A program made the translations under genes and the position numbers. 64,000 nucleotides of DNA. It comes from Roseimaritima sp. (GTDB lineage: Bacteria > Planctomycetota > Planctomycetia > Pirellulales > Pirellulaceae). This document shows, piece after piece, positions 5,602 to 64,000 of the stretch. Under the pieces are notes generated by a model. The model was not told the DNA's origin. It saw nothing but the letters and a program-made list of their open reading frames with translations, and made no database searches. Each line of letters opens with the position of its first letter. Within the stretch, counting starts at the first letter, position 1. The stretch is taken from assembly GCA_048267365.1 (NCBI GenBank), contig JBLWXR010000002.1:44240-108239 (forward strand), given 5' to 3'.

Positions 5602-5662
5602 CCGCGAACATAACGTTTTTGTCAGTGTCCCTGCGTTGTGTTCGCGGAGCGAACAACGACCA

Positions 5663-7717: not shown

Positions 7718-7726
7718 CGAAACTTC

Positions 7727-9316
7727 CTAATTGGAGACGTCGGCTTGAGTCCATTGACCGTCAATGTAACGCCACGTGCTGCCGGTGGGATTTTTGTCGG
7801 CCAACCAGCAGGGCAACCGATCGGGCCGCACATTGTCGTAACTGGTCAACTTGGCGAATCGAGAAATCGACGTGGGGATACCGACGGCGGTGAACCCGGG
7901 ATGTCCGGTGGCCGGGTAGGGTCCGCCATGGTTCATGGCGGCGCTGACGGCCACGCCGGTGGGCATTTTGTCGTTCAACAACCGGCCCACGCGGGGCGTC
8001 ATGGCGAAGGCCAACTGTTCGTAAGCCGCTTCGTCGCTGCCGTCGGTGGCCGTGTACAAGCAACCCGTCAGATTACCTTCCAGCGAATCGATGACTTGGG
8101 TGGCCTGGTCCAGATCGTCGGCGATCACGAACAACGATGCATTACCAAAGGCTTCGGTCAGAAACACTTCCGGGTCCTGCAAGAATTGCTGACCGCTGCA
8201 TTGCAGCAAGGTGTTGGAAACCGCACATCGATTGGGTTCCGACGAACCGTCGCCGGCCAACCGCTGGGCGCCGGCGTCGACCAGGGTTTTTACGCTGCTG
8301 CTGAGCGAATCGGCAACCGCCGGGGACAACAGCGTGCCGGCCGGGGCGGATTGAAAACGTTCGCGGACAGCGTTCACAAACGCTTCGCTCTCGGCTCCGG
8401 CAACCAGCACGACCATGCCGGGGTTGGTGCAGAACTGGCCGGTGCCCATCAATGCACTCGTGACAAATTCATTGACGATGTCTTCCGAGCGTTCTTTCAA
8501 CGCGGCCGGTGTGATCACCACCGGGTTGACGCTGGACAGTTCCAAATAGATCGGTTTGCCGGCGGCATCCGCGGCGGCTTTGAGCGCCAAACCGGCGCGG
8601 CGACTGCCCGTGTATCCGGTCGCGCCACAGCGAGGATCGGCCACCAACCGGGCGCCGTCGTCGTGACTGGTGCGGTAGATCAGCTGCACCGTGGCGGCCG
8701 GCAAGCCAGCCGACTCGACAGCCGCAAAGGCTTGCTCGGCCAACAGCCGGGTCGTTTCGGGATGCGACGTGTTGGCTTTGGCGATCACCGGGTTGCCCGC
8801 GGCGATGGCGGCGGCGAAATCACCGCCGGCGACGCTGTTAAAAGCGAAGGGGAAATTGTTGGGACCAAACACACACACCGGGCCCAGGGATTCGTAACAC
8901 GACCGAATCCCGGCTTTGGTATCGATCACCGGCGACACCCAGTCTCCGTTGACCACCGCAGCGGCGGCCAGTTTCAATTGATTGACCGTGCGCGGCAATT
9001 CGACGTCGGCCAGCCGAGGACTTTTGGCCAGGCCGGTTTCGCTGTACGCGGCTTCGACCAAAGCGTCCGCGGCGGATTGCAGATTGTCGGCAAAGGCCAG
9101 CAAGAAGTCGGCGATTTTTTGCCGTGGCAATTTCCGCAGTTCTACCGCGGCGGCGGACGCAGCGGCTAACGCCGCATCGCAGTCCTGCCAGGAACTGACG
9201 GGGAAATGATGGGGCAGCGGTTCGCGAGTGTTCGGATTGGTGGCTTGAAAGCTGCCGGTTGCCGAAGCCGCGCGCCACTGACCATCGATCAATACAGGTT
9301 GAGTTTCAGAATTCAT
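7727..9316 (-). CDS. aldehyde dehydrogenase, alpha-ketoglutarate-semialdehyde (2,5-dioxovalerate) dehydrogenase-like
   Basis: 529 aa of the ALDH superfamily, with the catalytic Cys in GQFCTNPG and the Glu in YLELSSVNP. The N-terminus LIDGQWRAA..FQATNP and the length fit KGSADH-type enzymes. It lies 11 bp downstream of the FAH-family gene. Confidence 0.7.
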   Translation of the reverse strand: MNSETQPVLIDGQWRAASATGSFQATNPNTREPLPHHFPVSSWQDCDAALAAASAAAVELRKLPRQKIADFLLAFADNLQSAADALVEAAYSETGLAKSPRLADVELPRTVNQLKLAAAAVVNGDWVSPVIDTKAGIRSCYESLGPVCVFGPNNFPFAFNSVAGGDFAAAIAAGNPVIAKANTSHPETTRLLAEQAFAAVESAGLPAATVQLIYRTSHDDGARLVADPRCGATGYTGSRRAGLALKAAADAAGKPIYLELSSVNPVVITPAALKERSEDIVNEFVTSALMGTGQFCTNPGMVVLVAGAESEAFVNAVRERFQSAPAGTLLSPAVADSLSSSVKTLVDAGAQRLAGDGSSEPNRCAVSNTLLQCSGQQFLQDPEVFLTEAFGNASLFVIADDLDQATQVIDSLEGNLTGCLYTATDGSDEAAYEQLAFAMTPRVGRLLNDKMPTGVAVSAAMNHGGPYPATGHPGFTAVGIPTSISRFAKLTSYDNVRPDRLPCWLADKNPTGSTWRYIDGQWTQADVSN

Positions 9317-15333: not shown

Positions 15334-15365
15334 GTCTGCTTGCGTTGGTGGTGCTCCGCTGAACA

Positions 15366-15962
15366 TCAATTTTGTTCGGCGATGTCTTTGAAGCTGATCA
15401 ATTGCAGCCGTCCCCAAGGGTTGTGCATCGGATGGGATTGGGCATAAGGGTCGGGGGTCATGTGCACTCGATAACACAGCCCGTTTTCATCGGCAATGAT
15501 GTGGCCATCGCGACCCCGCTGTTATCGACAAACACCCCGGCACCGCCGGCGCGGAGCACCACGCTGGCAGCCTCTATCAACTTGGCAGCCGATTCCATCG
15601 ATCCACATCGGCCGGTCAAACACAGCTGCACCTTGTAGTTTTCGACTTGGCGTTTTTCTTCAGCGTTTCTCTTCAGCGGTCGGTTCGCGGCGACACATGG
15701 AAGCAAACAAGCCGGCAAATTGGCTATCCGGATCGCGAAGTTCCATAGCAAATTGGCCGCCGTCGCCGAGGATCAGGCGATCGGGAGTGAAGCGGCAATC
15801 GTCGGGCATCGCATCGAGCATTTCCTGCGGACTTGCCCAGGTCGCAGGAATCCGAACGGTTACGGCTACGTTTGCATCAGACTTCGCATTTACCCCATTA
15901 GTTGACGTCGAAGACATAGATTTCCCATCAGTATGCCACGCCAGACGCTCCGGTGCCATCAA
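15366..15962 (-). pseudogene. frameshifted gene of unknown function, disrupted by a 13-bp tandem duplication
   Basis: Three consecutive minus-strand ORF pieces: 15660-15962, 15458-15751, and a tail to the TGA at 15366-15368. Frame a ends ...TAEEKR*. Frame b reads ...NAEEKRQVENYK... The plus strand carries gcgtttttcttca (15650-15662) followed by gcgtttctcttca (15663-15675). Removing one copy joins frames a and b exactly, which I checked codon by codon. Confidence 0.65.
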
Positions 15963-52864: not shown

Positions 52865-54052
52865 ATGCACCCGTTCAGCCTATCGATCTGCCGTGTTTGC
52901 CTGTGGTTCGCCGTTGCCCTTGGGGTGGCCGCGATCGCCGATTCCCGCTGCGCCCGTTTGACAGCACAACAGGCCGCTGAGGCCTCGGGGTATGTGCTGC
53001 TGCGAAATGGCAACGTGTTGCGTGGCGAAGCCAAACAGGATGGCGTCTTTATCAATGTGGAACAGACCAACGTGGCCACCGTCCGCTTGCCGCAATCGGA
53101 AGTGCTGTGTTGGGCGCCGCGCCTGGAAGACCTCTACAGCTACCGGCTGCAACACCGCAAGCCACACAGTCTGACGGCCCGCTTCGAAGACTTGCGTTGG
53201 TGCATCCAACAGGGCCTGCTGGAGATCGCCGAACGGGAGCTGCAGCAATTGCAGGAGTTAGCGCCGAGCGATCGGCGGGTGGTCTCGATGACGGCCTTGC
53301 TGGACAGCGCGCAGCGTCGCCAACAAGCCGCTGCCGCCCCGCAAGCAAGCACCGCTTCCGCTGACCCCGCTTCCGCTAACCCCGCTTCCGCTGATTCTGC
53401 AGCCGATCCCCTGGCCAGCTCGGACGTGCCGGTAGCCCATCAACCGCGGCGTCCGGAATTGCTGGGCTCGCTGTCAGCCGCTCCGCTCGACGGCGGCTCC
53501 CCGGTGGTCATCGACACCGAAGCCGAAGTCGAAGCCCTCCCGCGCGAGCTGCTGGTCACCTACACCAAACGCATTCAGCCACTGCTGATCAATCGCTGTG
53601 GACAAGCCGGTTGTCATGGCGGCGCGTCGACGGCCGTCTGGCAGCTGGAACACTTTGGGTCCTCCTACGGGTTGCCGGCGAATTTCACCCGCCAGAACCT
53701 CGGCAGTCTGTTGCATTGGTTGCACGGCGAGCAAGCCGAAGCCAGCCCGCTGCTGGTCCGTGCGACGCAACCACACGGCGGCCGCGACAGCGCTCCGTTG
53801 GGACCGCGAGAAGCAGACCTGCAGCAGAGTCTGCGAGCCTGGATCACGGCCATGGTCCAGCGTCACGCTTCCGGCGGAGCCCTGGCCAAGACGCCCACCG
53901 GCGACCCCATGTTCGCCTCGCAAGCCTCGCACGAATCGTCCGCTGCCGCTTATCACCCCGGTGCGAGTTCGGCGGGCAAACCCACGCGCTTGCCGCCGGT
54001 TGAGGATCCGTTTGATCCCGCCGACTTCAATCGCATCTATCACGCTCACTGA
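52865..54052 (+). CDS. hypothetical secreted protein
   Basis: 395 aa with a signal peptide, ICRVCLWFAVALGVAAIA. It contains LLINRCGQAGCHGG and a 15-bp-repeat-encoded PASA(D/N) stretch. Confidence 0.5.
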   Translation: MHPFSLSICRVCLWFAVALGVAAIADSRCARLTAQQAAEASGYVLLRNGNVLRGEAKQDGVFINVEQTNVATVRLPQSEVLCWAPRLEDLYSYRLQHRKPHSLTARFEDLRWCIQQGLLEIAERELQQLQELAPSDRRVVSMTALLDSAQRRQQAAAAPQASTASADPASANPASADSAADPLASSDVPVAHQPRRPELLGSLSAAPLDGGSPVVIDTEAEVEALPRELLVTYTKRIQPLLINRCGQAGCHGGASTAVWQLEHFGSSYGLPANFTRQNLGSLLHWLHGEQAEASPLLVRATQPHGGRDSAPLGPREADLQQSLRAWITAMVQRHASGGALAKTPTGDPMFASQASHESSAAAYHPGASSAGKPTRLPPVEDPFDPADFNRIYHAH

Positions 54053-54150: not shown

Positions 54151-54744
54151 TTGATGAAACATTGGAACCCACGGTTATTCGCAACCTACGTTTCAGTAGT
54201 TTCTGCGCGGACGATGGTTGCGGCACCCCCTGGCGTGCCGTGCCAACCCGCGCAACCCCTGCAACCCGCCAGGCGCGCGTTGCCAGACCTACCTACCGGA
54301 ACGGTTACTGTGCTGGATTCCTCACGATCGAAACTGCTGCTGGTTGAATCGGAGTCGTTGTTGGCGGATTTAACCAGTTTTCGTCTAGAACTGTTGGGTT
54401 ACCACATTCAATGTCTGACCGCGGGCAGTGAAGTGCTGGCGGCGTTGTCCCGCGAAGTCCCCGACCTATTGATCGTCGGCACCACGCTGCTCGACGGCGA
54501 CAGCATCGAACTGGTCGCGCGGCTCCGCAATCAATACCCCGCCGAACAACTTCCGATCCTGGTTTGTTCCCTCGACCCGTCGTTGGAGACCGTCGAGCGA
54601 GCTTTTGCCGCCGGAGCTCAGGACTACCTAATCACGCCCTTTGACCCGGCGGTGCTGGAGCAGAAGATTCAGTATCTGTTGCACCCCGCGGTCGGTTCCG
54701 GCTGGCGATCCTCCTCTCGATCCACCCGCGGAGCAGCTCGATGA
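54151..54744 (+). CDS. response-regulator receiver-like protein lacking phospho-acceptor residues (pseudo-receiver)
   Basis: The receiver fold is recognisable (KLLLVESES..., PDLLIVGTTLLDGDS, LPILVCS, DYLITPFD). The positions equivalent to CheY D12/D13, D57 and K109 read E/S, G and T. The true start is probably downstream (ATG 54214 or GTG 54310). The stop overlaps the ATPase start. Confidence 0.65.
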   Translation: MMKHWNPRLFATYVSVVSARTMVAAPPGVPCQPAQPLQPARRALPDLPTGTVTVLDSSRSKLLLVESESLLADLTSFRLELLGYHIQCLTAGSEVLAALSREVPDLLIVGTTLLDGDSIELVARLRNQYPAEQLPILVCSLDPSLETVERAFAAGAQDYLITPFDPAVLEQKIQYLLHPAVGSGWRSSSRSTRGAAR

Positions 54745-56477
54745 CGCGACGCTTAGGTGACGTACTGCTGGAACAACAACGGTTGTCAGCCGAGCAGATC
54801 GAAGAAGCGCTGCGGACCAAACCGCGAGGCGTGATGCTGGGCGACTGGATGGTCGAGCAGCAGTTGCTCAACACGGCCGAATTGATCCAAGCCTTGGCGG
54901 AACAGTTTCAGGTCCCAGCGTTGGACATCGATTCCAGTTCCGTCGATCCACAGATCGCGCGGCTGATCCCCGAAGACTTTGCTCGCAGCCACGAATCGGC
55001 CGCGGTGCGAATTTCCGGTCGGCAAATGACTCTGGCCATGGTGGCGCCCGACGATATCGAAACGATCGCCGAAGCGGAATTGATGACGGGTTACGAAATC
55101 GTGCCGGTGGTGGCCTTGGCGGAAGACGTCACCTTGGTCCTGCAGCGAGCCTACGACGACCGCTCGTTGGCCCGGCAAACGATTGTCGACATGAAAATGG
55201 CCGAACTGCGTGAAGCTCGCCAAGCCGGGGAAGACGACGCCACGATGGCCGTGTTGGTCGACTCCGATGACACGCCGGTGGTGCGGTTGGTGCAAGCCAT
55301 CTTGTCGGGAGCCGCCACGGCCAAGGCCAGCGACGTACACCTGGAACCCCACAAGCCCGAAATGCGAGTGCGGTACCGTGTGGACGGGGAACTGCAACAA
55401 ATCATGACCATCCCCAACCATATCGAAGATTCGGTGATCAGCCGCATCAAGGTCATGGCCGACATGGATACGACCGAAAGCCGGCGCCCGCAAGACGGAC
55501 ACCTGGTGGTGTTTGAAAACGGTAAACGCGTGGGCTTCCGCGTCAGCAGTATCCCCACCGTGGACGGTCAAAAACTGGTGTTGCGATTGCTGGACGAAGG
55601 CGGCAAAACCTTTCAACTCGATCGCTTGGGGATGACCGAACGCGATCAGCAACGAGTGCGTGATGTCATCGAAAAACCCTACGGGATGTTTGTGGTGACC
55701 GGTCCCACCGGCAGCGGCAAAAGCACGACGCTGTACGCCGTCCTACAGCATCTGAACAGCGTCGACCGCAATATCGTCACGGTCGAAGACCCGGTCGAAT
55801 TCCGTTTGCCCGGCATCAATCAGGTGCAAAGCGACAATGAGTTTGGTATGGGCTTCGGCAATGCGCTGAAATACATCATGCGGCAGGACCCCGACGTGAT
55901 CATGGTCGGCGAAATCCGCGACCGCGAAACCGCCGGCACCGCCGTCCAAGCAGCATTGACCGGACACCTGATGATCAGCACACTGCACACCAATGACGCC
56001 GTAGGTGCGGTGCAACGATTAAGTGACCTGGGAATCGACAATTTTAAAATCGCCGGCGCCCTGTTGGGCAGTGTTGCCCAACGTTTGCTCCGCTGCATCT
56101 GCGAGAACTGCAAAGAACCGACCACCGCCAACGCCAGTTTACTGCGAGCTCTGGACACGGCCGGACGCGTGCCTGCTGAGGCCACGTTCTATCGCGGCCG
56201 AGGTTGCAAGAAATGCCTCGGCACCGGCTTGGCCGGCCGCTTGCCGATCTTCGAAATCATGCCCATGCAAGCGGAGATGGTGGCCGCCGTGGAAGCCGGC
56301 ATGCCCCATTCGCAGTTGCGTGAACTGGCGATTCAATCCGGCATGGTCGAACTGGCACAAGCCGGACTGGAACAAGCCTTGGCCGGACGCACCACGCTGG
56401 AAGAGGTCTACATCAAAACCATGTCCGATGGTTGGGACCGTCGCCAGGGTAGCGAAGACCGACGCGAGCAGGAATAA
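54741..56477 (+). CDS. GspE/PilB family secretion ATPase with N-terminal T2SSE_N (MshEN-like) domain
   Basis: 578 aa. Walker A GPTGSGKSTT, Walker B DPDVIMVGEIRD, His box GHLMISTLHTND and tetra-Cys CENC...CKKC. The N-terminus has tandem 24-residue LGxxLLxxxxL...AL motifs. Confidence 0.9.
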   Translation: MTRRLGDVLLEQQRLSAEQIEEALRTKPRGVMLGDWMVEQQLLNTAELIQALAEQFQVPALDIDSSSVDPQIARLIPEDFARSHESAAVRISGRQMTLAMVAPDDIETIAEAELMTGYEIVPVVALAEDVTLVLQRAYDDRSLARQTIVDMKMAELREARQAGEDDATMAVLVDSDDTPVVRLVQAILSGAATAKASDVHLEPHKPEMRVRYRVDGELQQIMTIPNHIEDSVISRIKVMADMDTTESRRPQDGHLVVFENGKRVGFRVSSIPTVDGQKLVLRLLDEGGKTFQLDRLGMTERDQQRVRDVIEKPYGMFVVTGPTGSGKSTTLYAVLQHLNSVDRNIVTVEDPVEFRLPGINQVQSDNEFGMGFGNALKYIMRQDPDVIMVGEIRDRETAGTAVQAALTGHLMISTLHTNDAVGAVQRLSDLGIDNFKIAGALLGSVAQRLLRCICENCKEPTTANASLLRALDTAGRVPAEATFYRGRGCKKCLGTGLAGRLPIFEIMPMQAEMVAAVEAGMPHSQLRELAIQSGMVELAQAGLEQALAGRTTLEEVYIKTMSDGWDRRQGSEDRREQE

Positions 56478-56489
56478 GGACTCTCATCG

Positions 56490-57710
56490 ATGCGACTCTC
56501 TCCGTCTCACAGCCGCCCACCGTCCAGCCGCGCACCGTCCAGCCGCCCACCGTCCAGCCGCGCACCGTCCAGCCGCGCGCTGACCGCCGACCTGACCGGC
56601 ACCGTAGGCCGTTGGCTGCGCACGCTGCATCAAATCGAAGTCGGCCCCAGTCGCAAACCCGGCGAAGGCATCCGCATCCCGGCATCGGGTTTGGCGCAAC
56701 TGATGCGGTTGCTGCTGATGCTGTTGGAGAACGGCTTGTCGATGCCACGCGCCCTGGCCGCTTTGGCAGCCGATCGCTCGATGCGCCGCTACCGGCCCGC
56801 ACTGCTGCGGATGCAAGCGGCTGTCGAAGCCGGCAGTACGCTCAGCACCGCCATGGCTCGGATGCCGCGAACCTTCTCCAAAATGCAAACCCAACAGATC
56901 GCCATCGGGGAACAATCGGGTTCTTTGGAACACGCTCTGACACGCGTCTGCGAACAGCTCGAACGCAGCGTGCAAATGCGAAAGCGGATCATCAAAAAAA
57001 TCAGCTATCCAGCCCTGATCCTGTTGGCCGGGATGGGACTGGTGATTTTTATGGTGGTCGAAGTGGTGCCCGAATTCGAAGACATTTTTAACAGTAGCAA
57101 CGTCAAGCTGCCCACCGTGACGCGAGTGGTGACGCGGATCAGCAAATGGACGTTGGTCTACGGTTGGACGGTGCCGTTGCTGGGCGGGCTCGCGTTGGCC
57201 GCCCTCTGGCTGGCTCGTTCACGAGCTCGGTTCGCTCAAGCGATGGACAATGTCCTGCTGTATGTGCCGCTGCTGGGCCCTTGGTTGCGGGATATCGCCG
57301 TGCTGCAATTTGCCGAAACCACGTTGTCGATGGTGGAGTGCGGGTTTGTGCCGGTTGACGCAGTGCAAATGTCAGCGGGCTGTGTTCGCAATCGGGCGGT
57401 ACGAGCCGCCGTGCAAAGCATCAGCAAGGCGGTCAGTCGAGGCGAAAAACTGAGTACGGAACTGGCTCGGCACGGTCGCTTCTTTCCCTCTACGCTTTGC
57501 CAGTTGGTCAGCATCGGAGAACAATCGGGTGACTTCCCCAAAGCCATGCGAGGCACTTGCGTGCACCTGCGTGAACGACTGGAAACTCGCATGGATGCCA
57601 CCATCGGATTGATCGAACCCATCCTGACGATCTCGTTGGCCGTGGTTATCGGCGCGGTGGTGCTGTCGATCTATATGCCGATGTTCCACATGTTCGAAGT
57701 TCTGGAGTAA
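56490..57710 (+). CDS. type II secretion / type IV pilus platform protein (GspF/PilC family)
   Basis: 406 aa with two T2SSF repeats and three TM segments. The N-terminal PPSSRAPSSR repeats arise from a 15-bp x4 tandem repeat. Confidence 0.85.
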   Translation: MRLSPSHSRPPSSRAPSSRPPSSRAPSSRALTADLTGTVGRWLRTLHQIEVGPSRKPGEGIRIPASGLAQLMRLLLMLLENGLSMPRALAALAADRSMRRYRPALLRMQAAVEAGSTLSTAMARMPRTFSKMQTQQIAIGEQSGSLEHALTRVCEQLERSVQMRKRIIKKISYPALILLAGMGLVIFMVVEVVPEFEDIFNSSNVKLPTVTRVVTRISKWTLVYGWTVPLLGGLALAALWLARSRARFAQAMDNVLLYVPLLGPWLRDIAVLQFAETTLSMVECGFVPVDAVQMSAGCVRNRAVRAAVQSISKAVSRGEKLSTELARHGRFFPSTLCQLVSIGEQSGDFPKAMRGTCVHLRERLETRMDATIGLIEPILTISLAVVIGAVVLSIYMPMFHMFEVLE

Positions 57711-57718
57711 CGGTCCTG

Positions 57719-58162
57719 ATGCGAAATCCCCACCCCACACCGTGCGTCGTCGCCGGCTGTGCTGCCTCGCCTGTGAATCGTTGCCGTGTAGCCTTGAAGC
57801 GATTCGCAGCTGACTGCGGGCGACGAAAGCCTGGACTCCGGCGGCGGGGACTTACGTTGCTGGAAGTTATTCTGGCGGTGGTCATTGCGGCCACGGTCGC
57901 AGCCATGGGGCTGCACTTCATGCGGCCTACCGGCGTACACTCGCGACAGCAATCCTGCGACCTGACGCGTCAAACCGTACAGCTGGAAGCCGGTCGCTAC
58001 CGCGATGCAAACGGCGTTTGGCCGAGCAGCGATTTAAGACAGCTGAACGACTCGGCCTATTTTCCCAACGGTGTCCCCAGTTGTCCGGCGCAGGGCGGAG
58101 CCTATCGGCTGACAGGCTCGCAAGTTGTCTGCCCGGTTCACGAAGCGACCCGCCACCCCTAA
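57719..58162 (+). CDS. prepilin-type N-terminal cleavage/methylation domain protein (pilin or pseudopilin)
   Basis: Class III signal ...RRRG|LTLLEVILAVVIAATVAAMGL with Glu at +5. The mature part is about 100 aa with 4 Cys. The annotated leader is long (42 aa), so the real start may be further downstream. Confidence 0.8.
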   Translation: MRNPHPTPCVVAGCAASPVNRCRVALKRFAADCGRRKPGLRRRGLTLLEVILAVVIAATVAAMGLHFMRPTGVHSRQQSCDLTRQTVQLEAGRYRDANGVWPSSDLRQLNDSAYFPNGVPSCPAQGGAYRLTGSQVVCPVHEATRHP

Positions 58163-58641
58163 TCGTGCAGCCCGAACTCGGTGGCTTCGCCCAGTAGCGC
58201 CGCGACTTTTTCCTTGTCGATGTTCGCAGCCGCTTCGAAGCCGGTTTTGGACAGCGAGAAATCGCGATGCAAGTGGTGCAGGATCAAGCCGTTGCGGCAC
58301 AGCTGACAAAAGCCATCAAAAAATCGCACCGTGACCTGCGGGTCTTCGCGATTGCGAAACGCGATCGTGCGGTGTTCGTCGAGCTCGACATAGATCGCTA
58401 GCAAACGCGCGGGGGCTTCGAAAGCCGTTCGCACGCCGCGGACTTCGATCACACCGCGATCTTTCGCCGCGTACAAAATCGCTTCCGCTTCGCCCGACAA
58501 CTCGCCAACTTCCGTCGGTGGATCGACCACCACCCGTGCACACACCGCCGCGAGGGCCGCCAGTGTGGGAGCGCCTTCGCCCAACGCCTCCCAGCTGCTC
58601 TGTAGTTGCCCGTGGAATTCGCTGGATTCGGGAAGCAGCAT
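58159..58641 (-). CDS. hypothetical protein
   Basis: 160-aa ORF, convergent with the pilin gene and overlapping it by 4 nt. No family recognised. Confidence 0.45.
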   Translation of the reverse strand: MLLPESSEFHGQLQSSWEALGEGAPTLAALAAVCARVVVDPPTEVGELSGEAEAILYAAKDRGVIEVRGVRTAFEAPARLLAIYVELDEHRTIAFRNREDPQVTVRFFDGFCQLCRNGLILHHLHRDFSLSKTGFEAAANIDKEKVAALLGEATEFGLHD

Positions 58642-58741: not shown

Positions 58742-59920
58742 ATGACACGACAGTTGTTCTTTTCGGTAGGCGAACCCAGCGGCGACCAGCACTGCGCGCG
58801 GTTGATCCAAGCGCTCCGTCGTCAACATACGGGTTTGCAGCTGCGCGGCTTTGGGGGCCCGGAAATGCGCCGGGCGGGTTGCCAACTGGACTACGACCTC
58901 ACCCAGATGGCGGTCATGGGACTGGTCGAAGTGGTGCCCAAATTGCGGGACTTCTTTCGTTTGGCCGACCAAGCCGAACAGGTGTTTGCATCCGGTTCCG
59001 TCGATGCCGTGCTGCTGGCCGACTTTCCGGGTTTTAATTGGCACATCGCCAAACGAGCCAAAAAATATAACTTGCCGGTGTACTACTACCTGCCGCCCCA
59101 ACTGTGGGCCTGGGCTCCTTGGCGGATCCGCAAGCTGCGGCGTTCGGTCGACAAGGTCCTGTCCGTGCTGCCGTTCGAATGCGAATGGTATCAACAGCGA
59201 GGCGTGGACGCGGAATACGTGGGGCATCCGTTTTTTGATGCTATCGCCGATCAGCAACTGGACGCGGCCGTCATCGACTCCTTGGCAGCACAAAAGCAAG
59301 CGGGCAATCGCTTGGTGGCCGTCTTGCCCGGATCGCGGCAACACGAAGTCACTCGCAATTGGCCGGTGATGCTGGAAGCGATCCGTCGGCTGTCCAAGCA
59401 ACATCCCGACGTCCGCTTTTTGGTCGCGGCTTTTAAAGACAAACAATGCCTATGGTGTCGCAATCAATTGCGCGCCGAAGACCGGCAGCTACCGATCGAC
59501 TTTTTCGTGGGCAAGTCCAGCGAGATCATCGAGATGTCCGAATGCGGCATGATGGTATCCGGTTCGGTCAGTCTGGAGATGATGGCCCGCGGTACACCGG
59601 CAGCGGTGATCTACCGTGTCGGACGCGTGTTCTACGGAGTCGGACGGATGATGATCCGCGTCTCCAGCATGACGCTGCCCAATTTGATCGCCGGCGAAAC
59701 AATTTTTCCCGAGTACGGTTCCTGCGGCTCGCCCGAGCCCGCGGTGCAGTTCCTCTGCCAACACGTCGACTCGATGCTCAGCGACACGCTGTACCGCCAA
59801 CGCTTAGACTTGCAACTGAGCCGGCTTCGCGCGGATGTCGCCCAGCCGGGTGCCTCGCAGCAGGCTGCCACAACGCTGCTGAACGCCATGGGGCTCAGCC
59901 GCCAAACTGCAGCCGCCTAA
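58742..59920 (+). CDS. lpxB: lipid-A-disaccharide synthase
   Basis: 392 aa: LFFSVGEPSGDQHCARLIQAL, DFPGFN and LPGSR, typical of LpxB (GT19). Confidence 0.85.
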   Translation: MTRQLFFSVGEPSGDQHCARLIQALRRQHTGLQLRGFGGPEMRRAGCQLDYDLTQMAVMGLVEVVPKLRDFFRLADQAEQVFASGSVDAVLLADFPGFNWHIAKRAKKYNLPVYYYLPPQLWAWAPWRIRKLRRSVDKVLSVLPFECEWYQQRGVDAEYVGHPFFDAIADQQLDAAVIDSLAAQKQAGNRLVAVLPGSRQHEVTRNWPVMLEAIRRLSKQHPDVRFLVAAFKDKQCLWCRNQLRAEDRQLPIDFFVGKSSEIIEMSECGMMVSGSVSLEMMARGTPAAVIYRVGRVFYGVGRMMIRVSSMTLPNLIAGETIFPEYGSCGSPEPAVQFLCQHVDSMLSDTLYRQRLDLQLSRLRADVAQPGASQQAATTLLNAMGLSRQTAAA

Positions 59921-60056: not shown

Positions 60057-61718
60057 CTAACGTACTTTGGCGGTTGCCGTGGCTGCGGCCAGTTGCTGGT
60101 CCCATAGCTGGACCAACCGCTGCAGCTGGTCGGGATGCGTTGCCGACAAGTCGCGGGACTCGGCGCGATCCTTAGACAAATCGTACAGCTCCCAAGAACC
60201 ATCCTTGGCCGCCACTGCCTTCCAGTCCCCCACGCGGATGGCTTTGTGCCCATCGTGGAACCACCACAGCCAATCGCGCTGCAGCGGGGCGTCTTGCCGG
60301 AGCACCGAAACCAAGCTTTTTCCGGGGAAGGGCGGGGCGGCAGGATCCGGATTCGCTGGCGGCGTTTCCCCACCGGCCAATTCGATAATTGTCGGCAACA
60401 TATCGATCACATGCCCCACCTGTCGGCGAAAGCCACCGCCCTGGCGAATCCCTTGCGGCCAGCAGGCGATCAACGGTGTGGAGATGCCGCCTTCGTGCGT
60501 CCATGTTTTATGGCGTCGAAAAGGTGTGTTGCCGGTCGTCGACCATCCGGGCCCCAAGCACAGATAGGTGGCGGCCGATCCCGGTGCCGCGCTGGCATCG
60601 TGTCCATCATCGCGGACCATGATTTCGGCGCTGCTGCCATTGTCGGACAAGAACAGCACCAGTGTATTGTCCATCTGGTCCATCGCTCTCAGCTGATCCA
60701 AGACATCGCCGATCACTTGGTCCATGCGATCGATCATGGCAGCATGGATGGCCATTTTGTCGGCCTGAAACCGTTGTTGCTCCGCCGTCAACGTCTCCCA
60801 CGGCACAGGCCGGTTGACCTCACCGGGCCCCAGCATTTCGAGGTGATCGGGAAAGGCATAAGGCGGCCCCAGGTCGCGTTCGACTTCCGACAGCTCTCCA
60901 TCCAATAATCCCAAGCGTTTCATCTTTTCCCACCGCGTCTGCCGAATCTTCTGCCAGCCTTGTTGATATACCGATTGGTATTTCTCGATGTCTTGCGGCA
61001 AGGCGTGCAGAGGGAAATGAGGAGCGGTGAAAGCCAGGTAGTGGAAGAATGGTTGGTCCGCGTACTCCGCTTGGTGTTCTTGAAGACATGTAATGGCGTG
61101 CTGACCAATCGCCTCGGTCGCATAGTAGCCAGCGTCTTTCTCCACCGGCGGCAAACGTTGATCATCCCGCCAATGCACTTTGGGATTAAAAAAACGTCCC
61201 TGATCTTGCAACAAATAAGAACGGTCGAATCCGTTTTCAATGGGCATACCATCGATGTGCCATTTGCCGCTGTGATACGATCGATAGCCCAGCGGTTTCA
61301 GCTGGACCGGCAACAACGTGGCCCAATCCGGACGCACACCCCGGCCTCCGCTGCGAACGCCTGGCACCGTGTCACGACGAACGGTTTGAGCATAGTGGCC
61401 CGTCAGCAGCGCCGCCCGCGTCGGCCAACACCTGGCCGTGTTGTAGAACTGCGTGAACCGCAGCCCTTGCTCCGCCAAGCGATCCAGATTTGGCGTATCG
61501 ATCTCGCTGCCATAGCAGCCCAAATCCGAATACCCCAAGTCATCAGCCAAGATCAACAGCACATTGGGGCGAGCCGGCGATTCGGCATTTCCGGACACCG
61601 GATTCACAACTTGCACCACGACCGTTAATAACGTGCAAAAGCCCAGTGCCAGCCGGCGGGATCTGCCAACGGGCGAGGTGACAAGCAGCGAATACATGGC
61701 AATCAGAATCCTAGGCAT
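60057..61718 (-). CDS. arylsulfatase (formylglycine-dependent sulfatase family)
   Basis: 553 aa with a signal peptide, LLILADDLGYSDLGCYGSEIDTPNLDRLA, and the CxPxR motif in TARCWPTRAALLTGHY. Confidence 0.9.
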   Translation of the reverse strand: MPRILIAMYSLLVTSPVGRSRRLALGFCTLLTVVVQVVNPVSGNAESPARPNVLLILADDLGYSDLGCYGSEIDTPNLDRLAEQGLRFTQFYNTARCWPTRAALLTGHYAQTVRRDTVPGVRSGGRGVRPDWATLLPVQLKPLGYRSYHSGKWHIDGMPIENGFDRSYLLQDQGRFFNPKVHWRDDQRLPPVEKDAGYYATEAIGQHAITCLQEHQAEYADQPFFHYLAFTAPHFPLHALPQDIEKYQSVYQQGWQKIRQTRWEKMKRLGLLDGELSEVERDLGPPYAFPDHLEMLGPGEVNRPVPWETLTAEQQRFQADKMAIHAAMIDRMDQVIGDVLDQLRAMDQMDNTLVLFLSDNGSSAEIMVRDDGHDASAAPGSAATYLCLGPGWSTTGNTPFRRHKTWTHEGGISTPLIACWPQGIRQGGGFRRQVGHVIDMLPTIIELAGGETPPANPDPAAPPFPGKSLVSVLRQDAPLQRDWLWWFHDGHKAIRVGDWKAVAAKDGSWELYDLSKDRAESRDLSATHPDQLQRLVQLWDQQLAAATATAKVR

Positions 61719-61992: not shown

Positions 61993-64000
61993 ATGCTCAT
62001 TCGCTCTTTACAGAGTCCCGCACCGATGCTCCCACACGCAGCGTCTGCCGAGCCGACCACAGCCGAGCCGACCACAGCCGAGCAAACTTCCGCTGCGCTG
62101 TTGCGGGAGGTCCAGGAATCGTTGCAGGCGCTCGCCGAACTGGAACCGCACGGCGAGCAACTGGGCGAGCCGACGATACAACGCATGCGAGACACGGTCG
62201 CTGAAATTCGCCAGCGGTTGGCGCGTGAGGAGGTGTTTGTCTGCGTGGTGGGAGAGCAAAAGGCAGGCAAAAGTACGTTCCTGAACGCGATTCTTGGCAT
62301 GCCGTTGCTGGGCACCGCCGTGCGTGAGTGCACCGGCACGGTGACCTATATCCGTCCTGCCAGTCGCCCCGGCTATCGCGCCCGCTTGCAGTCCGGCCAG
62401 TGGGAGGACTTTGCCGAAAAATTTCCCGATCAACAGGAGGCCTTCACCGCCAAGTTGCATGAACTAGACCAGAAACTGCAGCATTGCGATCACGTCGAAG
62501 CCACCTACCCAAGCAAACGTGACCAGCTGACCCAGCGACTGCAGCACTTGCAAAGGACGCTGCAAACCCAAAGCCAAGATCTAGAACGCACCGACCGCAA
62601 CGCCAGGGAACAGGAGGCGTGGCTTGCCCAAATAACTGACGAGACAAGAACGCTGGGCAGCAAGTTAAAAGAGACGGAAAAGGACGTGCCCTGGCGGTAC
62701 CGTCGAGCTACCGGTTGGCAGGCTGCCGGACACCGCATGGGACGGTTTTTGATCCGACGCACATCGGAACCCCACTGGGAGGCGTACCTCGCTGACACGG
62801 CCCGCTGGGAACAACAACAAACCGAAATTGCCAGACTTGCAGCCGACCTACAGACTGCTCGACAGTTGGCTCAGGAAAGCCGGTTGGCGGTGGACCATAC
62901 GCAACAGGAAATCGAAACCACCAAACAACAACTCGCTGAAGTCTGCCAAACTCTGGACGCCCTGCCCGCACTGCGTGCCCACAGTCAACAAGCTCGAGCC
63001 GAACAGGGCAGGGCGTTGCGTGAGTATAGCGAGCAGCGTTTCGAGCAATTCCGTGAAGCGGTCAAACCGTTGACGGACATGAACCACCGCGGGTCCGAGG
63101 TGCAAGAACTGCACTTGTTCGTCCCCACCCAACGCTTGCCCGCCGGCATGGTCTTGATCGATACCCCGGGTGTAAACACAACCACCGAAGAAAACCAACA
63201 ACGGGCCTGGAAAGCCATCCAAGATCACGCCGACGCCTGCCTATTGATTTCCGACCTGACACAAACGGTCAGTGAGTCGACCCGTGAATTCGTTCGACGG
63301 ATTCGTCGCGTCACCCCCCATCTGTTGTTGGTGCTCACCAAGCGGGATGTGGTGCTTCGCAACGCGATGCTGTCCGGCGGGGACGCGGAGGAAGAACTTG
63401 CCGAAGCGATTCAGGTCGGCCGCTCGCGGTTTGCCGCGGAAGTTGGACGTGCCGAAGAAGAAGTGCTGACCTTTGCCGTCGCCGCGCAACCGGCCCTGCA
63501 GGAAAGCCTGTCCCCGCCCCACACGGGCCCTGCCTCGGCGGCCTTCAACGAAGAGTTGTCGCGTATCTATGCCGTGGTGGGGGCGGAACGTTCGATTGCG
63601 ATTACCGCCAAATCGGCCAGCCTGCTGCGCAACGTTCACCACGATTCCGCGGCCAAAATTTCCGCGGCGGACCAAGCCTATCAGCAGCGGATCGAAACGC
63701 TGATGCAACAACGTGTGGACAATCCCGTCGCGTTGGTCAATCAACGCATTACGGACCTGGTCCCCCAGATTCGCCAAACAGGCGAGGAAATATCGAAACT
63801 GGTGCGCGAGCAGCTTCGCGACAAACTGACGGCTCTCCGCGAGGTGACTGTTCAACAGGTGGAAGCCGCCACGGATCTCATGCAATTGTCGAAAGCCGTC
63901 AAAGAATTTCAGGAGTCCGTGCCGACCAAGCTGCAGCATATCTCGATCGAATGCCGGCAACAGGTCGATGCGCAGTTTGCGGATTCCCTGGCAGACTTGG
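61993..64000 (+). CDS. dynamin-family GTPase (bacterial dynamin-like protein) with a large coiled-coil insertion in the G domain; partial, continues past the window end
   Basis: Own codon-by-codon translation from ATG 61993; I found no stop through 63360, the supplied track lists no complete plus-strand ORF in this frame after that, and the reading frame appears open to 64000. G1 is VVGEQKAGKSTFLNAILG (62251-). G2 region TGTVTY. G3 LIDTPG (63160-63171). G4 LTKRD (63337-63348). It is absent from the supplied track because no stop lies within the window. Confidence 0.75.
   Translation, partial: MLIRSLQSPAPMLPHAASAEPTTAEPTTAEQTSAALLREVQESLQALAELEPHGEQLGEPTIQRMRDTVAEIRQRLAREEVFVCVVGEQKAGKSTFLNAILGMPLLGTAVRECTGTVTYIRPASRPGYRARLQSGQWEDFAEKFPDQQEAFTAKLHELDQKLQHCDHVEATYPSKRDQLTQRLQHLQRTLQTQSQDLERTDRNAREQEAWLAQITDETRTLGSKLKETEKDVPWRYRRATGWQAAGHRMGRFLIRRTSEPHWEAYLADTARWEQQQTEIARLAADLQTARQLAQESRLAVDHTQQEIETTKQQLAEVCQTLDALPALRAHSQQARAEQGRALREYSEQRFEQFREAVKPLTDMNHRGSEVQELHLFVPTQRLPAGMVLIDTPGVNTTTEENQQRAWKAIQDHADACLLISDLTQTVSESTREFVRRIRRVTPHLLLVLTKRDVVLRNAMLSGGDAEEELAEAIQVGRSRFAAEVGRAEEEVLTFAVAAQPALQESLSPPHTGPASAAFNEELSRIYAVVGAERSIAITAKSASLLRNVHHDSAAKISAADQAYQQRIETLMQQRVDNPVALVNQRITDLVPQIRQTGEEISKLVREQLRDKLTALREVTVQQVEAATDLMQLSKAVKEFQESVPTKLQHISIECRQQVDAQFADSLADL

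What the first reader, a model, noticed from the sequence alone, without database searches (positions are those of the whole stretch)
61993..64000. Dynamin-like GTPase whose G domain is split by a coiled-coil insertion of about 200 aa (SMC/Rad50-like topology)
G1 (GEQKAGKS, aa 87-94) and a G2-like Thr (aa ~115) are separated from G3 (DTPG, aa 390-393) by about 300 residues. G4 is TKRD at aa 449-452. In the bacterial dynamin-like proteins I know (the Nostoc BDLP, DynA and LeoA types), G1 and G3 are about 100 aa apart. The extra sequence (about 62440-63100) is Q/E/R/L-rich and heptad-like. It is interrupted in the middle by a basic and aromatic patch, VPWRYRRATGWQAAGHRMGRFLIRR (62686-62760), which could be the apex of an antiparallel coiled coil. 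A nucleotide-binding fold interrupted by a long coiled-coil hairpin is the SMC/Rad50 design principle. I do not know of it being described for dynamins. The gene runs off the window, so its partners are unseen. BDLPs often come in pairs, and dynamin-like pairs form the Eleos anti-phage system.
Basis: partly seen in the sequence, partly recalled or inferred. Interest (0 to 1): 0.7.

Follow-up and report, generated by a model that had tools for sequence, protein, structure and literature searches.

The report
Dynamin GTPase with coiled-coil arm
This gene encodes a bacterial dynamin-like GTPase whose nucleotide-binding domain is interrupted by a long two-helix arm (about 12 nm) with a conserved aromatic tip; this layout defines a rare, apparently undescribed family whose relatives sit in operons with two more dynamin-like genes.

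Summary
The ORF (61993 to 64000, running off the window) is the first 669 codons of a dynamin-family protein; an identical database entry is 868 aa. G1 and G3 are 303 residues apart, against 104 in Nostoc BDLP and 98 in IniA. An insert-less family member shows that about 200 residues (nt 62446-63045) replace about 9.

Both arms show heptad periodicity. Arm sequence is poorly conserved, but arm length, two facing prolines and the tip motif are conserved.

The family is rare: 80 clusters among 1.84 billion representatives. Insert lengths fall into classes (none, about 30, 95, 120, 190, 270 and 310 aa). Most long-insert members have a strongly hydrophobic Trp-rich tip; the query's tip is basic.

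Relatives lie in a conserved module with a LeoA-like DLP of about 650 aa, a degenerate DLP, and a Zn-ribbon or M48 protein. I found no description of this in Pfam, NCBIfam, PADLOC or the literature searched.

Most likely it is a membrane-contacting lever arm on a multi-dynamin machine, possibly defensive. The function is inferred, and the query's own partners were not seen.

The parts
61993..64000 (+). 5' part (669 codons) of the dynamin-like GTPase gene. The full product is 868 aa from the annotated start at 62026, or 879 aa from the first in-frame ATG at 61993. The gene runs off the window end.
   Evidence: Open frame. 100% identical to P0001 over 658 aa. Dynamin_N E 4.7e-24. Foldseek best match BDLP, E 1.9e-13.
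62074..62223 (+). N-terminal helices preceding the G domain (P0001 17-66). By position they look like the first neck/BSE helices.
   Evidence: AF2 secondary structure: H17-37, H40-46, H48-66, pLDDT above 90. Assigning them to the neck is an inference from BDLP architecture.
62233..62421 (+). N-terminal half of the G domain: beta1, P-loop G1 GEQKAGKS (62251-62274), alpha1, switch I with the G2 Thr (T114 of the ORF, 62332-62334), and three short strands.
   Evidence: Motifs located. Invariant family columns G76, K82, S83, E101 and T103. Aligns to BDLP 45-114. AF2 strands 70-76, 106-111, 116-121 and 126-128.
62434..62679 (+). Outgoing arm of the coiled-coil hairpin: one 82-residue helix (P0001 137-218) with a conserved Pro (P162, nt 62509-62511) about 25 residues above its base.
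   Evidence: AF2 H137-218, pLDDT 95-98. 3.5-residue periodicity, 0 of 2000 shuffles. P162 conserved in 94% of the 303-spacing class.
62680..62769 (+). Tip (apex) of the hairpin (P0001 219-248). It carries the start of the family motif VP[WY]x[YF]R...W...R...PxWxxHL, which runs to nt 62790. In this protein the segment 221-246 is basic (net charge +7) and aromatic.
   Evidence: AF2 non-helical or short-helix segment, pLDDT 75-80. Conserved columns P222 (100%), Y225, R226, W231, R240, P249, W251, H254. In relatives the equivalent segment is strongly hydrophobic, with Wimley-White scores down to -14 kcal/mol.
62770..63075 (+). Return arm (P0001 249-350): one 102-residue helix with a conserved Leu-Pro (P314, nt 62965-62967) roughly opposite P162. 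Its last 20 or so residues (RFxxEVxxLTDM) are also present in insert-less homologues and so belong to the G domain.
   Evidence: AF2 H249-350. Periodicity 0 of 2000 shuffles, and P314 at 94%, R338, F342, L349, T350, D351 conserved. BLASTP to insert-less P0021 resumes at residue 341.
62446..63045 (+). Net insertion relative to an insert-less family member (P0001 141-340, about 200 aa replacing about 9).
   Evidence: Two colinear BLASTP blocks against P0021. G1-G3 spacing is 303 here and 112 in P0021 and P0033.
63100..63375 (+). C-terminal half of the G domain: strands leading to G3 DTPG (63160-63171), switch II, and G4 TKRD (63337-63348).
   Evidence: Motifs located. Invariant D379, T380, P381, G382 and D441. 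Aligns to IniA 119-205. MMR_HSR1 and GTP_EFTU stretches at aa 385-498.
63385..63999 (+). Start of the helical neck/trunk region (P0001 454-658). The rest, including a Gly-rich hydrophobic segment that may be the membrane paddle (P0001 717-754), lies beyond the window.
   Evidence: AF2 long helices 502-561, 579-613 and 618-650. Foldseek similarity to the BDLP and IniA trunks. Segment 717-754 has pLDDT below 50. Gly-zipper and DUF1269 hits below cutoff in relative P0034.

Best explanation
The gene encodes a BDLP-type dynamin-like GTPase. An antiparallel two-helix coiled-coil hairpin of about 82 residues per arm (about 12 nm if straight) has been grafted into the G domain, between the strands that follow switch I (G2) and the helix and strand that lead into G3.

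Shown here:
- The G-domain motifs are intact and the fold is dynamin-like.
- The insert is a long helical hairpin with a fixed length.
- It has two roughly facing prolines near its base.
- Its tip carries a conserved aromatic motif.
- The same design defines a rare family in which the arm comes in discrete lengths.
- In relatives, the protein is encoded next to a LeoA-like DLP of about 650 aa, a DLP with a degenerate G3, and a Zn-ribbon protein with or without an M48 protease domain.

Inferred:
- The tip is a contact element, most probably for membrane. In most long-insert relatives it is a Trp-rich hydrophobic segment. In this protein it is a +7 aromatic patch that would suit anionic lipid head groups.
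- The protein would then have two membrane contacts: the arm tip and the usual trunk paddle near the C-terminus.
- Because the arm's two ends are anchored about 35 residues after the G2 Thr and about 30-50 residues before the G3 Asp, nucleotide-dependent movements of the switch regions or G-domain dimerisation could swing the arm. It would then act as a lever or spacer that tethers or deforms membrane at a set distance within a hetero-oligomeric multi-dynamin machine.
- The cellular role is either membrane repair or remodelling, or an Eleos-like anti-phage function.
For: Dynamin identity: Dynamin_N at 85.7 bits; PDB sequence hits to IniA and BDLP; Foldseek best matches BDLP, IniA, SynDLP, Cj-DLP and mitofusin; invariant G1, G2, G3 and G4 columns.

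Insert anatomy:
- AF2 pLDDT 87.6, with helices 137-218 and 249-350 at pLDDT 95-98.
- A second model of the long-insert relative P0034 shows the same layout with longer arms.
- Heptad periodicity in both arms.
- Boundaries defined against insert-less P0021.

Selection on geometry and tip, not on arm sequence:
- Pairwise identity is 0.17-0.19 in the arms, 0.30 in the tip and 0.53-0.63 in the G domain.
- Length is exactly 303 in 18 homologues.
- P162 and P314 are 94% conserved.

Family-wide pattern:
- 80 cluster representatives reach E <= 1e-30 out of 1.84e9. Of the 51 with recognisable G1 and G3, 43 have spacing of at least 200 and 29 fall at 294-305.
- A sister subfamily keeps the arm and a hydrophobic tip although its G motifs are degenerate.

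Tip as membrane binder: Wimley-White 19-residue scores of -8 to -14 kcal/mol in most long-insert members. Members with spacing 112-206 have no hydrophobic tip.

Module: seen in loci L081, L082, L084, L086, L088 and L089, and with Hsp70 in place of the Zn-ribbon/M48 protein in L083. The 650-aa partner is also adjacent in genomes L001-L004 and L006. It matches PADLOC LeoA down to 3e-30 and LeoBC down to 2.5e-22.

The gene's GC content (59.6%) equals that of the window (60.3%).
Against: - No coordinates could be inspected. That the two helices pack against each other, and how the arm is oriented relative to the nucleotide pocket, rests on the secondary-structure and pLDDT output, on periodicity and on the topological need for the chain to return.
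- The query's own tip is not hydrophobic (Wimley-White about -0.5). Its short helix is not significantly amphipathic (muH 0.54, reached by 17.7% of shuffles). Membrane binding by this particular protein is therefore extrapolated from relatives, and a +7 patch could equally bind nucleic acid or an acidic partner.
- The query's downstream genes were never seen.
- One relative (P0038, L087) has no DLP neighbour.
- Matches to the Eleos models are only moderate, and the module has three DLPs, not two.
- No experiment exists for any member.
Confidence: 0.55

Rival explanations
1. The arm is a protein-protein assembly element and not a membrane binder. The hairpin tips, or the whole arms, would pair with the arm of a second copy or with the partner DLPs. 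This is analogous to the Rad50 zinc hook, the SMC hinge or the dynamin stalk, so that G-domain engagement closes a ring or builds a lattice.
For: The query clade's tip is polar and basic with conserved Pro, Trp, Tyr and Arg, not hydrophobic. Its helix is not significantly amphipathic. The protein is always encoded with paralogous DLPs that probably form hetero-oligomers. Fixed arm length with free arm sequence is also what SMC and Rad50 arms show (established knowledge).
Against: In most long-insert relatives the tip is a Trp/Phe/Leu-rich segment of about 20 residues with interfacial free energy down to -14 kcal/mol. That is more typical of membrane insertion than of a soluble dimerisation knob. 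There is no CxxC hook or hinge-like globular domain at the apex.
Confidence: 0.2
2. The locus is an Eleos-type anti-phage (abortive or membrane-protective) system. The arm would be a sensor or effector that detects phage-induced membrane damage or a phage component, and membrane remodelling as such is secondary.
For: PADLOC LeoBC hit for the query (7.8e-9). LeoA and LeoBC hits for the 650-aa partner (3e-30 and 2.5e-22). Defence-island-like neighbours in three relatives: CHAT, TIR_2 and a transposase in L082; cysteine desulfurase plus DUF4007 in L084; Prok-JAB, ThiF and HTH in L088. Patchy distribution across Planctomycetota, Myxococcota, Proteobacteria and a cyanobacteria-labelled MAG. Variable domain content (M48, Hsp70 or small TM protein) is typical of conflict systems.
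Against: The window's own neighbourhood is housekeeping: a T2SS/pilus operon, LpxB and a sulfatase. GC content is native. Scores against the Eleos models are modest, and the three-DLP-plus-Zn-ribbon architecture is not the two-gene Eleos. No phage data exist. This rival concerns cellular role and is compatible with the structural mechanism above.
Confidence: 0.2
3. The insert is a tolerated, functionally neutral expansion at a permissive surface loop of the G domain, or an assembly or annotation artefact.
For: The G2-G3 region is a known variable site in dynamin G domains (established knowledge). An unrelated DLP (P0156) carries a different insert of about 230 aa there that does not look like a coiled coil. 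Arm sequence identity is low.
Against: Length is exact (303) across 18 sequences at 27-52% identity. The prolines and tip motif are conserved. The arm is retained even where the GTPase motifs decayed. The same architecture appears in dozens of independent assemblies from NCBI, JGI, ENA and Logan. The frame is open and the sequence is identical to the NCBI protein.
Confidence: 0.04

Closest known systems
Nostoc punctiforme BDLP1 and Mycobacterium IniA (canonical bacterial dynamin-like proteins; PDB 2j68/2j69, 6j72)
   Same: They share G1-G4 motifs, the Dynamin_N domain, an N-terminal helix before the G domain, a helical neck and trunk after it, and a hydrophobic segment near the C-terminal trunk. 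They are the best sequence and fold matches.
   Different: In BDLP and IniA, G1 and G3 are 104 and 98 residues apart and the G domain is compact. Here the spacing is 303, and a coiled-coil hairpin of about 12 nm projects from the G domain.
LeoA/LeoB/LeoC of ETEC and the Eleos (LeoA + LeoBC) anti-phage system
   Same: Several dynamin-like genes sit side by side. The partner of about 650 aa in relatives matches the PADLOC LeoA and LeoBC models, and the query matches LeoBC weakly.
   Different: The matches are only moderate. The module has three DLP paralogues plus a Zn-ribbon or M48 protein (or Hsp70). The papers read on LeoA and the bacterial DLP pair (PMC6104087) describe no coiled-coil arm in the G domain. 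Defence activity is untested.
SMC / Rad50 / MukB ATPases
   Same: They share the design principle. A P-loop NTPase domain is split between its Walker A element and its Walker B element by a long antiparallel coiled-coil hairpin whose length is conserved more than its sequence. The apex is functional, and there is a conserved break (here P162/P314) reminiscent of a joint or elbow.
   Different: The NTPase class differs: TRAFAC GTPase here, ABC-type ATPase there. The arms are much shorter (about 12-20 nm against about 50 nm). There is no hinge or zinc hook. Hits to SMC and JetC models cover only the coiled coil and are far below cutoff. This is convergence, not membership.
SynDLP of Synechocystis (PDB 7zw6), a DLP with an 'enlarged GD'
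   Same: It is a bacterial DLP whose G domain is enlarged by additional alpha-helices (PMC10104851). In the sequence alignment about 115 residues separate the aligned blocks around G2 and G3.
   Different: The SynDLP G domain is described as globular. Here the extra residues form an extended hairpin with a conserved tip and discrete length classes.
Campylobacter jejuni DLP1/DLP2 tethering pair (PDB 5owv) and mitofusins
   Same: They are hetero-oligomeric DLPs proposed to bridge membranes over long range, and they carry an accessory domain (the Cj-DLP1 assembly domain) for partner binding. They are fold matches.
   Different: The Cj-DLP1 assembly domain is an N-terminal globular domain of 119 aa, not an insertion in the G domain (PMC6104087).
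DO-GTPase conflict systems (Kaur, Burroughs, Iyer and Aravind 2020, PMC7159879)
   Same: They have paired TRAFAC GTPases, N-terminal Zn ribbons and occasional Hsp70 partners, and they are enriched in multicellular or complex bacteria.
   Different: The query has no DO-GTPase Pfam hit. Relative P0005 scores 26.0 bits, below the cutoff of 27. The partners are Dynamin_N proteins, and no GAP1 component was seen.

Membership tests
Dynamin superfamily / bacterial dynamin-like proteins (BDLP type) | Dynamin_N-type G domain with G1 (GxxxxGKS), G2 Thr, G3 (DxxG) and G4 motifs | tested here: met
   Dynamin_N 85.7 bits against a cutoff of 27. GEQKAGKS, T114, DTPG and TKRD located. These columns are invariant or nearly so in 54 homologues.
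Dynamin superfamily / bacterial dynamin-like proteins (BDLP type) | G domain followed by helical neck and trunk bundles (BDLP fold) | tested here: met
   AF2 model, pLDDT 87.6. Foldseek best matches are BDLP 2j69 (E 1.9e-13), IniA, SynDLP and Cj-DLP1/2. The leading matches, and all 50 rows shown, are dynamin-superfamily proteins.
Dynamin superfamily / bacterial dynamin-like proteins (BDLP type) | Lipid-binding paddle or hydrophobic segment at the trunk tip | tested here: inconclusive
   A Gly-rich hydrophobic segment at P0001 717-754 lies outside the window and has pLDDT below 50. Its mean Kyte-Doolittle score is 1.5 in the query and 1.4-2.1 across the family. Gly-zipper and DUF1269 hits in relative P0034 are below cutoff.
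Dynamin superfamily / bacterial dynamin-like proteins (BDLP type) | GTP hydrolysis stimulated by G-domain dimerisation; membrane remodelling | not testable with these tools
   Requires biochemistry.
Eleos (LeoA + LeoBC) defence system | Protein matches the LeoBC or LeoA profile | tested here: inconclusive
   The query matches PADLOC LeoBC at E 7.8e-9 and 33 bits, over the region after the insert only. NCBIfam LeoA/HP0731 does not hit the query.
Eleos (LeoA + LeoBC) defence system | Adjacent LeoA-type partner gene | tested here: inconclusive
   Not visible in the window, and the source contig could not be retrieved. In relatives an adjacent DLP of about 650 aa matches LeoA at 3.7e-22 to 3.2e-30.
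Eleos (LeoA + LeoBC) defence system | Two-gene architecture | tested here: not met
   Relatives have three DLP paralogues plus a Zn-ribbon/M48 or Hsp70 gene.
Eleos (LeoA + LeoBC) defence system | Protection against phage | not testable with these tools
   No experimental data.
SMC / Rad50 family | ABC-type ATPase head (Walker A, signature motif, Walker B, D-loop) | tested here: not met
   The NTPase is a TRAFAC GTPase. SMC_prok_B scores 24.9 bits against a cutoff of 567, and JetC scores 23 bits; both cover only the coiled-coil region aa 115-372.
SMC / Rad50 family | [quoted passage not shown] | tested here: met
   This is topology only. Helices 137-218 and 249-350 lie between G1 and G3.
SMC / Rad50 family | Hinge domain or CxxC zinc hook at the apex | tested here: not met
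   The apex is a 30-residue aromatic/basic motif with no Cys pair and no globular domain.
DO-GTPase conflict systems | DO-GTPase1/2 domain and a GAP1 partner | tested here: not met
   No DO-GTPase hit for the query. P0005 scores 26.0 bits, below the cutoff of 27. The partners are Dynamin_N proteins and no GAP1-like gene was seen.

The most novel reading that the evidence does not exclude
This family would be a GTPase counterpart of SMC/Rad50. G-domain dimerisation and hydrolysis, acting through switch I and switch II which flank the arm's two roots, would swing a rigid coiled-coil arm of 12-20 nm. The arm's tip inserts into membrane. Together with the trunk paddle and two partner dynamins (one a pseudo-GTPase with a Zn ribbon), this would form a new kind of membrane-tethering or rupture-sensing machine. 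The discrete arm lengths would set the working distance, and the machine may act in anti-phage defence.
Probability: 0.3. Interest if true: 0.85.

Novelty: new variant of a known kind. Interest (0 to 1): 0.62.

Why it matters
Dynamin-family proteins are understood as a compact G domain that signals through a neck (BSE) to a stalk or trunk carrying the membrane binder. Here a second long rigid element emerges directly from the G domain, rooted next to both switch regions. It would give the nucleotide cycle a direct mechanical output that bypasses the neck.

If the tip binds membrane, the protein has two membrane contacts held apart by defined spacers. That is directly relevant to the open question of how DLPs tether and fuse or repair bilayers.

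The discrete arm-length classes form a natural series for testing ruler or lever models. They run from no insert through about 6, 12 and 18 nm to about 21 nm, estimated from arm residue counts. The versions with degenerate GTPase motifs add a further comparison.

The family also shows that splitting a P-loop NTPase with a coiled-coil hairpin has arisen independently in a GTPase. The conserved three-dynamin operon with shared Zn ribbons is a candidate new membrane-associated system, possibly defensive, in Planctomycetota and Myxococcota.

Tried and rejected
1. Retrieving the query's own downstream genes failed. Exact-product look-ups found nothing for P0001, the neighbouring sulfatase or LpxB. 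The contig of the closest relative, P0002, ends at the gene.

2. The single genome-contig scan used patterns that were too generic. It returned mostly ordinary actinobacterial DLPs. Only L001-L004 and L006 were family members, and the source genome was not among the 80 loci kept.

3. I recalled that the Cj-DLP1 'assembly domain' might be a G-domain insert. The paper shows it is N-terminal, so I rejected it as precedent.

4. DO-GTPase membership was suggested by a faint precomputed hit on P0005. I rejected it because the score is below cutoff and the partners are Dynamin_N proteins.

5. SMC, JetC and LmuB hits in NCBIfam and PADLOC cover only the coiled coil. I treated them as compositional.

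6. I tested whether the query's tip helix is amphipathic. The result was not significant, so membrane binding by the query's tip remains an extrapolation.

7. Six literature searches found no description of a coiled-coil insert in a dynamin G domain or of this operon. The library lacks most subscription journals, so absence is not proof.

8. The promoter and terminator scan of the 5' intergenic region found nothing.

9. I could not inspect model coordinates. Inter-helix packing, arm orientation and true arm length are not measured.
Full report
**Observation**

The frame starting at 61993 on the + strand is open for all 669 codons to the window end. It is identical over 658 residues to a database protein, P0001 (868 aa, NCBI, on a 164-kb contig). 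The annotated start of P0001 is the ORF's Met12 at nt 62026. In what follows, P0001 numbering equals ORF numbering minus 11.

- GEQKAGKS at ORF aa 87-94.
- DTPG at aa 390-393.
- TKRD at aa 449-452.
- The basic/aromatic patch at aa 232-256.

The G2 threonine is T114. It is invariant in the family and aligns to position 103 of Nostoc BDLP. From my own recollection of Low and Löwe 2006, that position is the BDLP switch I Thr.

Pfam Dynamin_N matches at 85.7 bits (cutoff 27), but in two stretches. The first covers only profile positions 1-72. MMR_HSR1 and GTP_EFTU place the G3-G4 half at aa 385-498. Alignments to solved structures give a G1-G3 distance of 104 in BDLP and 98 in IniA, against 303 here.

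**The insertion is real and precisely bounded**

Within the family itself there are members with no insert (P0021 and P0033, spacing 112). BLASTP of P0001 against P0021 gives two colinear blocks, P0001 24 to about 140 and 341-865. About 200 residues (P0001 141-340, nt 62446-63045) therefore replace about 9.

AlphaFold2 with a 54-sequence family alignment gives a confident model (mean pLDDT 87.6, pTM 0.67). The elements follow in this order:
- The P-loop strand, helix alpha1 and three short strands.
- One helix of 82 residues (137-218, pLDDT 95-98).
- A less confident tip (219-248, pLDDT 75-80, containing a short helix at 233-246).
- One helix of 102 residues (249-350).
- The strands that lead into DTPG.

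The last 20 or so residues of the return helix (RFxxEVxxLTDM) are conserved and also present in the insert-less members, so they belong to the G domain. That leaves two arms of about 82 residues. If they are straight and paired, the hairpin is about 12 nm long; this is my estimate at 0.15 nm per residue, not a measurement.

The whole model's best PDB fold matches are BDLP (E 1.9e-13), IniA, SynDLP, the Cj-DLP1/2 pair, Fzo1 and mitofusins. The leading matches, and all 50 rows shown, are dynamin-superfamily proteins. The HMM match is split, no library I searched holds a characterised family with this insert, and the G3/G4 half is modelled as part of one G domain with the P-loop half.

**Coiled-coil character and what is conserved**

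Eighteen homologues at 27-52% identity have exactly the same 303-residue G1-G3 spacing and stack without a single gap (identities). On that stack both arms show a dominant 3.5-residue hydrophobic period that none of 2000 shuffles reached.

Mean pairwise identity by region:

| Region | Mean pairwise identity |
|---|---|
| Arms | 0.17-0.19 |
| Tip | 0.30 |
| Return helix | 0.40 |
| G domain | 0.53-0.63 |

The conserved columns inside the insert are few and telling. P162 (94%) in the outgoing arm and L313-P314 (83% and 94%) in the return arm lie roughly opposite each other, about 25 residues above the base. That suggests a conserved kink or joint. The tip motif is P222 (100%), Y225, R226, W231, R240, P249, W251, H254, L255 and V258. 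Selection therefore acts on arm length, a joint and the apex, not on arm sequence.

**Family-wide picture**

An exhaustive HMMER search of 1.84 billion cluster representatives found 3855 hits at E <= 1e-3 (generic DLPs) but only 80 at E <= 1e-30. The family is rare. Among the 51 of those 80 in which both motifs could be recognised, G1-G3 spacing is distributed as follows:

| G1-G3 spacing | Members |
|---|---|
| 88-159 | 8 |
| 206-251 | 6 |
| 294-305 | 29 |
| 367-384 | 7 |
| 422 | 1 |

Generic DLPs in the same list sit at 88-118. A second AF2 model, of the long-class member P0034 (spacing 384, pLDDT 80.4), shows the same architecture. A segmented outgoing arm (135-289) leads to a tip (290-315) and a 117-residue return helix (316-432).

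A sister subfamily keeps the spacing of about 300 and the tip even though its G2 and G3 motifs, and in many members G1, are degenerate. In those members the arm is better preserved than the GTPase motifs.

The same G2-G3 site carries a different insert of about 230 aa that does not look like a coiled coil in an unrelated DLP, P0156. SynDLP is described as having an 'enlarged', still globular, G domain with extra helices (PMC10104851). The site therefore seems permissive. A long hairpin there is what is unusual.

**The tip**

In most members with inserts of about 190 aa or more, the tip is a Trp/Phe/Leu-rich segment such as APWWAFWVFVLRLLAGWFF or PWWAVWWWLLRALCVAFWW. Its Wimley-White interfacial scores are -8 to -14 kcal/mol over 19 residues, and its mean Kyte-Doolittle hydropathy is 1.2-1.8. 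Both arms must emerge on the same side. Such a segment would therefore be an interfacial or re-entrant membrane anchor and not a transmembrane pass (inference). Members with spacing 112-206 have no hydrophobic tip.

The query's clade is different. Its tip keeps the Pro, Trp, Tyr and Arg landmarks but is polar and strongly basic. Net charge is +7 over 221-246, and +5 to +7 in the tip window for P0001-P0004. Its Wimley-White score is about -0.5, and the short tip helix is not significantly amphipathic (muH 0.54, reached by 17.7% of shuffles). For this particular protein, membrane contact is an extrapolation. Binding to anionic lipid head groups is plausible, but a protein or nucleic-acid ligand is not excluded.

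All family members also carry a Gly-rich hydrophobic segment near the C-terminus. In P0001 it is at 717-754, beyond the window, with pLDDT below 50. It lies in the C-terminal helical region, where BDLPs carry their paddle. In the relative P0034 the equivalent segment gives Gly-zipper and DUF1269 hits below cutoff.

**Genomic context**

In the window the upstream genes are a response regulator, a T2SS-E/F ATPase and platform, a pseudopilin, LpxB and a divergently transcribed sulfatase. None is related to the finding. The gene's GC content equals that of the window. The downstream side is off the window, and I could not retrieve the source contig.

Relatives are informative.

| Locus (relative) | Gene order |
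|---|---|
| L081 (P0004, 49% identity) | Arm-bearing DLP, 241-aa hydrophobic protein with C-terminal Zn ribbon, 539-aa DLP, 650-aa DLP |
| L089 (P0005, 47% identity) | Arm-bearing DLP, 195-aa Zn-ribbon protein, 505-aa DLP, 618-aa DLP |
| L082, L088, L084 | The small protein is replaced by an M48 peptidase carrying the same C-terminal Zn ribbon |
| L086 | M48 fused to the degenerate DLP |
| L083 | Two additional DLP genes and an Hsp70-like protein with a C-terminal Zn ribbon precede the arm-bearing DLP, and the ~650-aa partner follows it |

By tblastn, the partner of about 650 aa is also adjacent in five named genomes or MAGs: a Pirellulaceae MAG, a Proteobacteria MAG, 'Cyanobacteria bacterium RYN_339', a Myxococcaceae MAG and a Myxococcota MAG. 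One relative (P0038) has no DLP neighbour.

Properties of the partners:
- The 650-aa partner is the best-conserved component (33-62% identity between loci). It has Dynamin_N plus the bacterial dynamin-like helical domain. It matches PADLOC LeoA (3.7e-22 to 3.2e-30) and LeoBC (down to 2.5e-22).
- The partner of 505-572 aa keeps its P-loop but usually has a degenerate G3 (DTPP, DTPS or DTPA). It often has an N-terminal Zn ribbon.
- Defence-island-like neighbours occur in three loci: CHAT, TIR_2 and a transposase in L082; cysteine desulfurase plus DUF4007 in L084; and Prok-JAB, ThiF and HTH in L088. None occurs in the window.

**Mechanism**

Shown: this is an intact dynamin-type G domain with a conserved, length-constrained hairpin of two long helices with heptad periodicity rooted between G2 and G3. 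The hairpin has a conserved apex and a proline pair near its base. Relatives are encoded in a conserved module of three DLP paralogues plus a Zn-ribbon protein.

Inferred: the arm is a rigid spacer or lever whose tip contacts membrane, or in the query's clade possibly an anionic surface. Its roots lie about 35 residues after the G2 Thr and about 30-50 residues before the G3 Asp. Nucleotide-dependent switch movements or G-domain dimerisation could therefore reorient it. With the C-terminal paddle, the protein would have two membrane contacts, which suits tethering, bridging or sensing of bilayer geometry within a hetero-oligomeric DLP complex. The discrete arm lengths would set the working distance.

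Whether the cellular role is membrane maintenance or Eleos-like phage defence cannot be decided here. I rate the anatomy at about 0.9 and the membrane-lever mechanism at about 0.45. The reported confidence of 0.55 blends the two.

**Comparison with known families**

It is a member of the dynamin superfamily of the BDLP type: the motif, Pfam and fold criteria were tested and met. It is not an SMC/Rad50 protein. The NTPase class differs, there is no hinge or hook, and the model hits cover only the coiled coil. The resemblance is a convergent topology. It is not a DO-GTPase.

Eleos membership is unresolved. The profile matches are weak to moderate, the partner was not seen for this genome, and the three-DLP architecture is not the two-gene Eleos. 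The Cj-DLP1 assembly domain is N-terminal, not an insert. The SynDLP enlarged G domain is the nearest published precedent for extra helices in a bacterial DLP G domain, but it is globular.

**Novelty**

Pfam gives only generic Dynamin_N. NCBIfam (June 2026) has no family-level hit; all matches are far below cutoff. PADLOC gives only a weak LeoBC hit. Six full-text searches found no description. Source annotations are generic or wrong, for example 'GTP-binding protein EngB', 'gas vesicle protein' and 'dynamin family protein'.

I classify it as a new variant of a known kind. The caveat is that the searchable literature excludes most subscription journals.

**Verdict**

The finding is a real, conserved and apparently undescribed architectural variant of bacterial dynamins. 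The function is inferred, and the query's own operon partners are still unseen. Interest is 0.62.

Noticed in passing
window 62047-62088 (ORF aa ~19-32); start codons at 61993 and 62026: The N-terminus carries a short tandem peptide repeat (AEPTT-AEPTT-AEQT). The NCBI protein starts at the ORF's Met12 (62026), not at the first in-frame ATG (61993). AF2 gives residues 1-9 a pLDDT below 50.
   Followed up: partly
P0074-P0118 (representative search hits, not in the window): A sister subfamily (26-29% identity) keeps the G1-G3 spacing of about 300 and a very hydrophobic PPWWAFWLWL tip. Its G2 and G3 motifs, and in many members G1, are degenerate (for example GKR or GRS P-loops, and DAPG, DVPG or DVPD). 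These are apparent pseudo-GTPase versions in which the arm is better preserved than the GTPase motifs.
   Followed up: partly
P0156 (863 aa): An unrelated dynamin-like protein carries an insert of about 230 aa between G1 and G3 that does not look like a coiled coil and appears strand-rich. This suggests the G2-G3 region is an insertion hotspot in bacterial DLP G domains.
   Followed up: no
L081:10594-11319, L089:2996-3583, L082:10583-11614, L088:11606-12697, L084:2907-4331, L083:6667-7947, and the N-termini of L081:11316-12935, L082:11611-13329 and L084:4328-6031: The same type of short Zn ribbon (CxxC...RFCxxCGAP) recurs on three different module components. It is at the C-terminus of the M48 peptidase or of the small hydrophobic protein that replaces it. 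It is at the C-terminus of the Hsp70-like protein. It is at the N-terminus of the degenerate DLP. This suggests a shared docking or sensing element.
   Followed up: partly
L086:4321-7074: In an Alphaproteobacteria MAG the M48 peptidase and the degenerate DLP are fused into one 917-aa protein. It sits next to a short-insert family member (P0043, spacing 138).
   Followed up: partly
L082 (CHAT 4806-7910; TIR_2 from 18526), L084 (Aminotran_5 13852-14871; DUF4007 14919-15890), L088 (Prok-JAB 3273-4238; ThiF 4183-4977): Several relatives' modules lie next to genes typical of defence islands: CHAT protease, a TIR protein and a transposase; a cysteine desulfurase plus DUF4007 pair that I recall from DNA phosphorothioation systems; and a JAB/E1-like pair. 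The window itself shows no such neighbours.
   Followed up: no
window 54151-58162: There is an operon of a response-regulator receiver protein, a T2SS-E/MshEN ATPase (578 aa), a T2SS-F platform protein (406 aa) and an N-methyl pseudopilin (147 aa). It is followed by LpxB (58742-59920) and a divergent sulfatase (60057-61718, minus strand). The gene content suggests a Planctomycetota-like organism. These genes are unrelated to the finding.
   Followed up: partly
window 52865-54052 (+) and 58159-58641 (-): Two ORFs, of 395 aa and 160 aa, had no Pfam family at E <= 0.001. It is unclear whether they are real genes.
   Followed up: no
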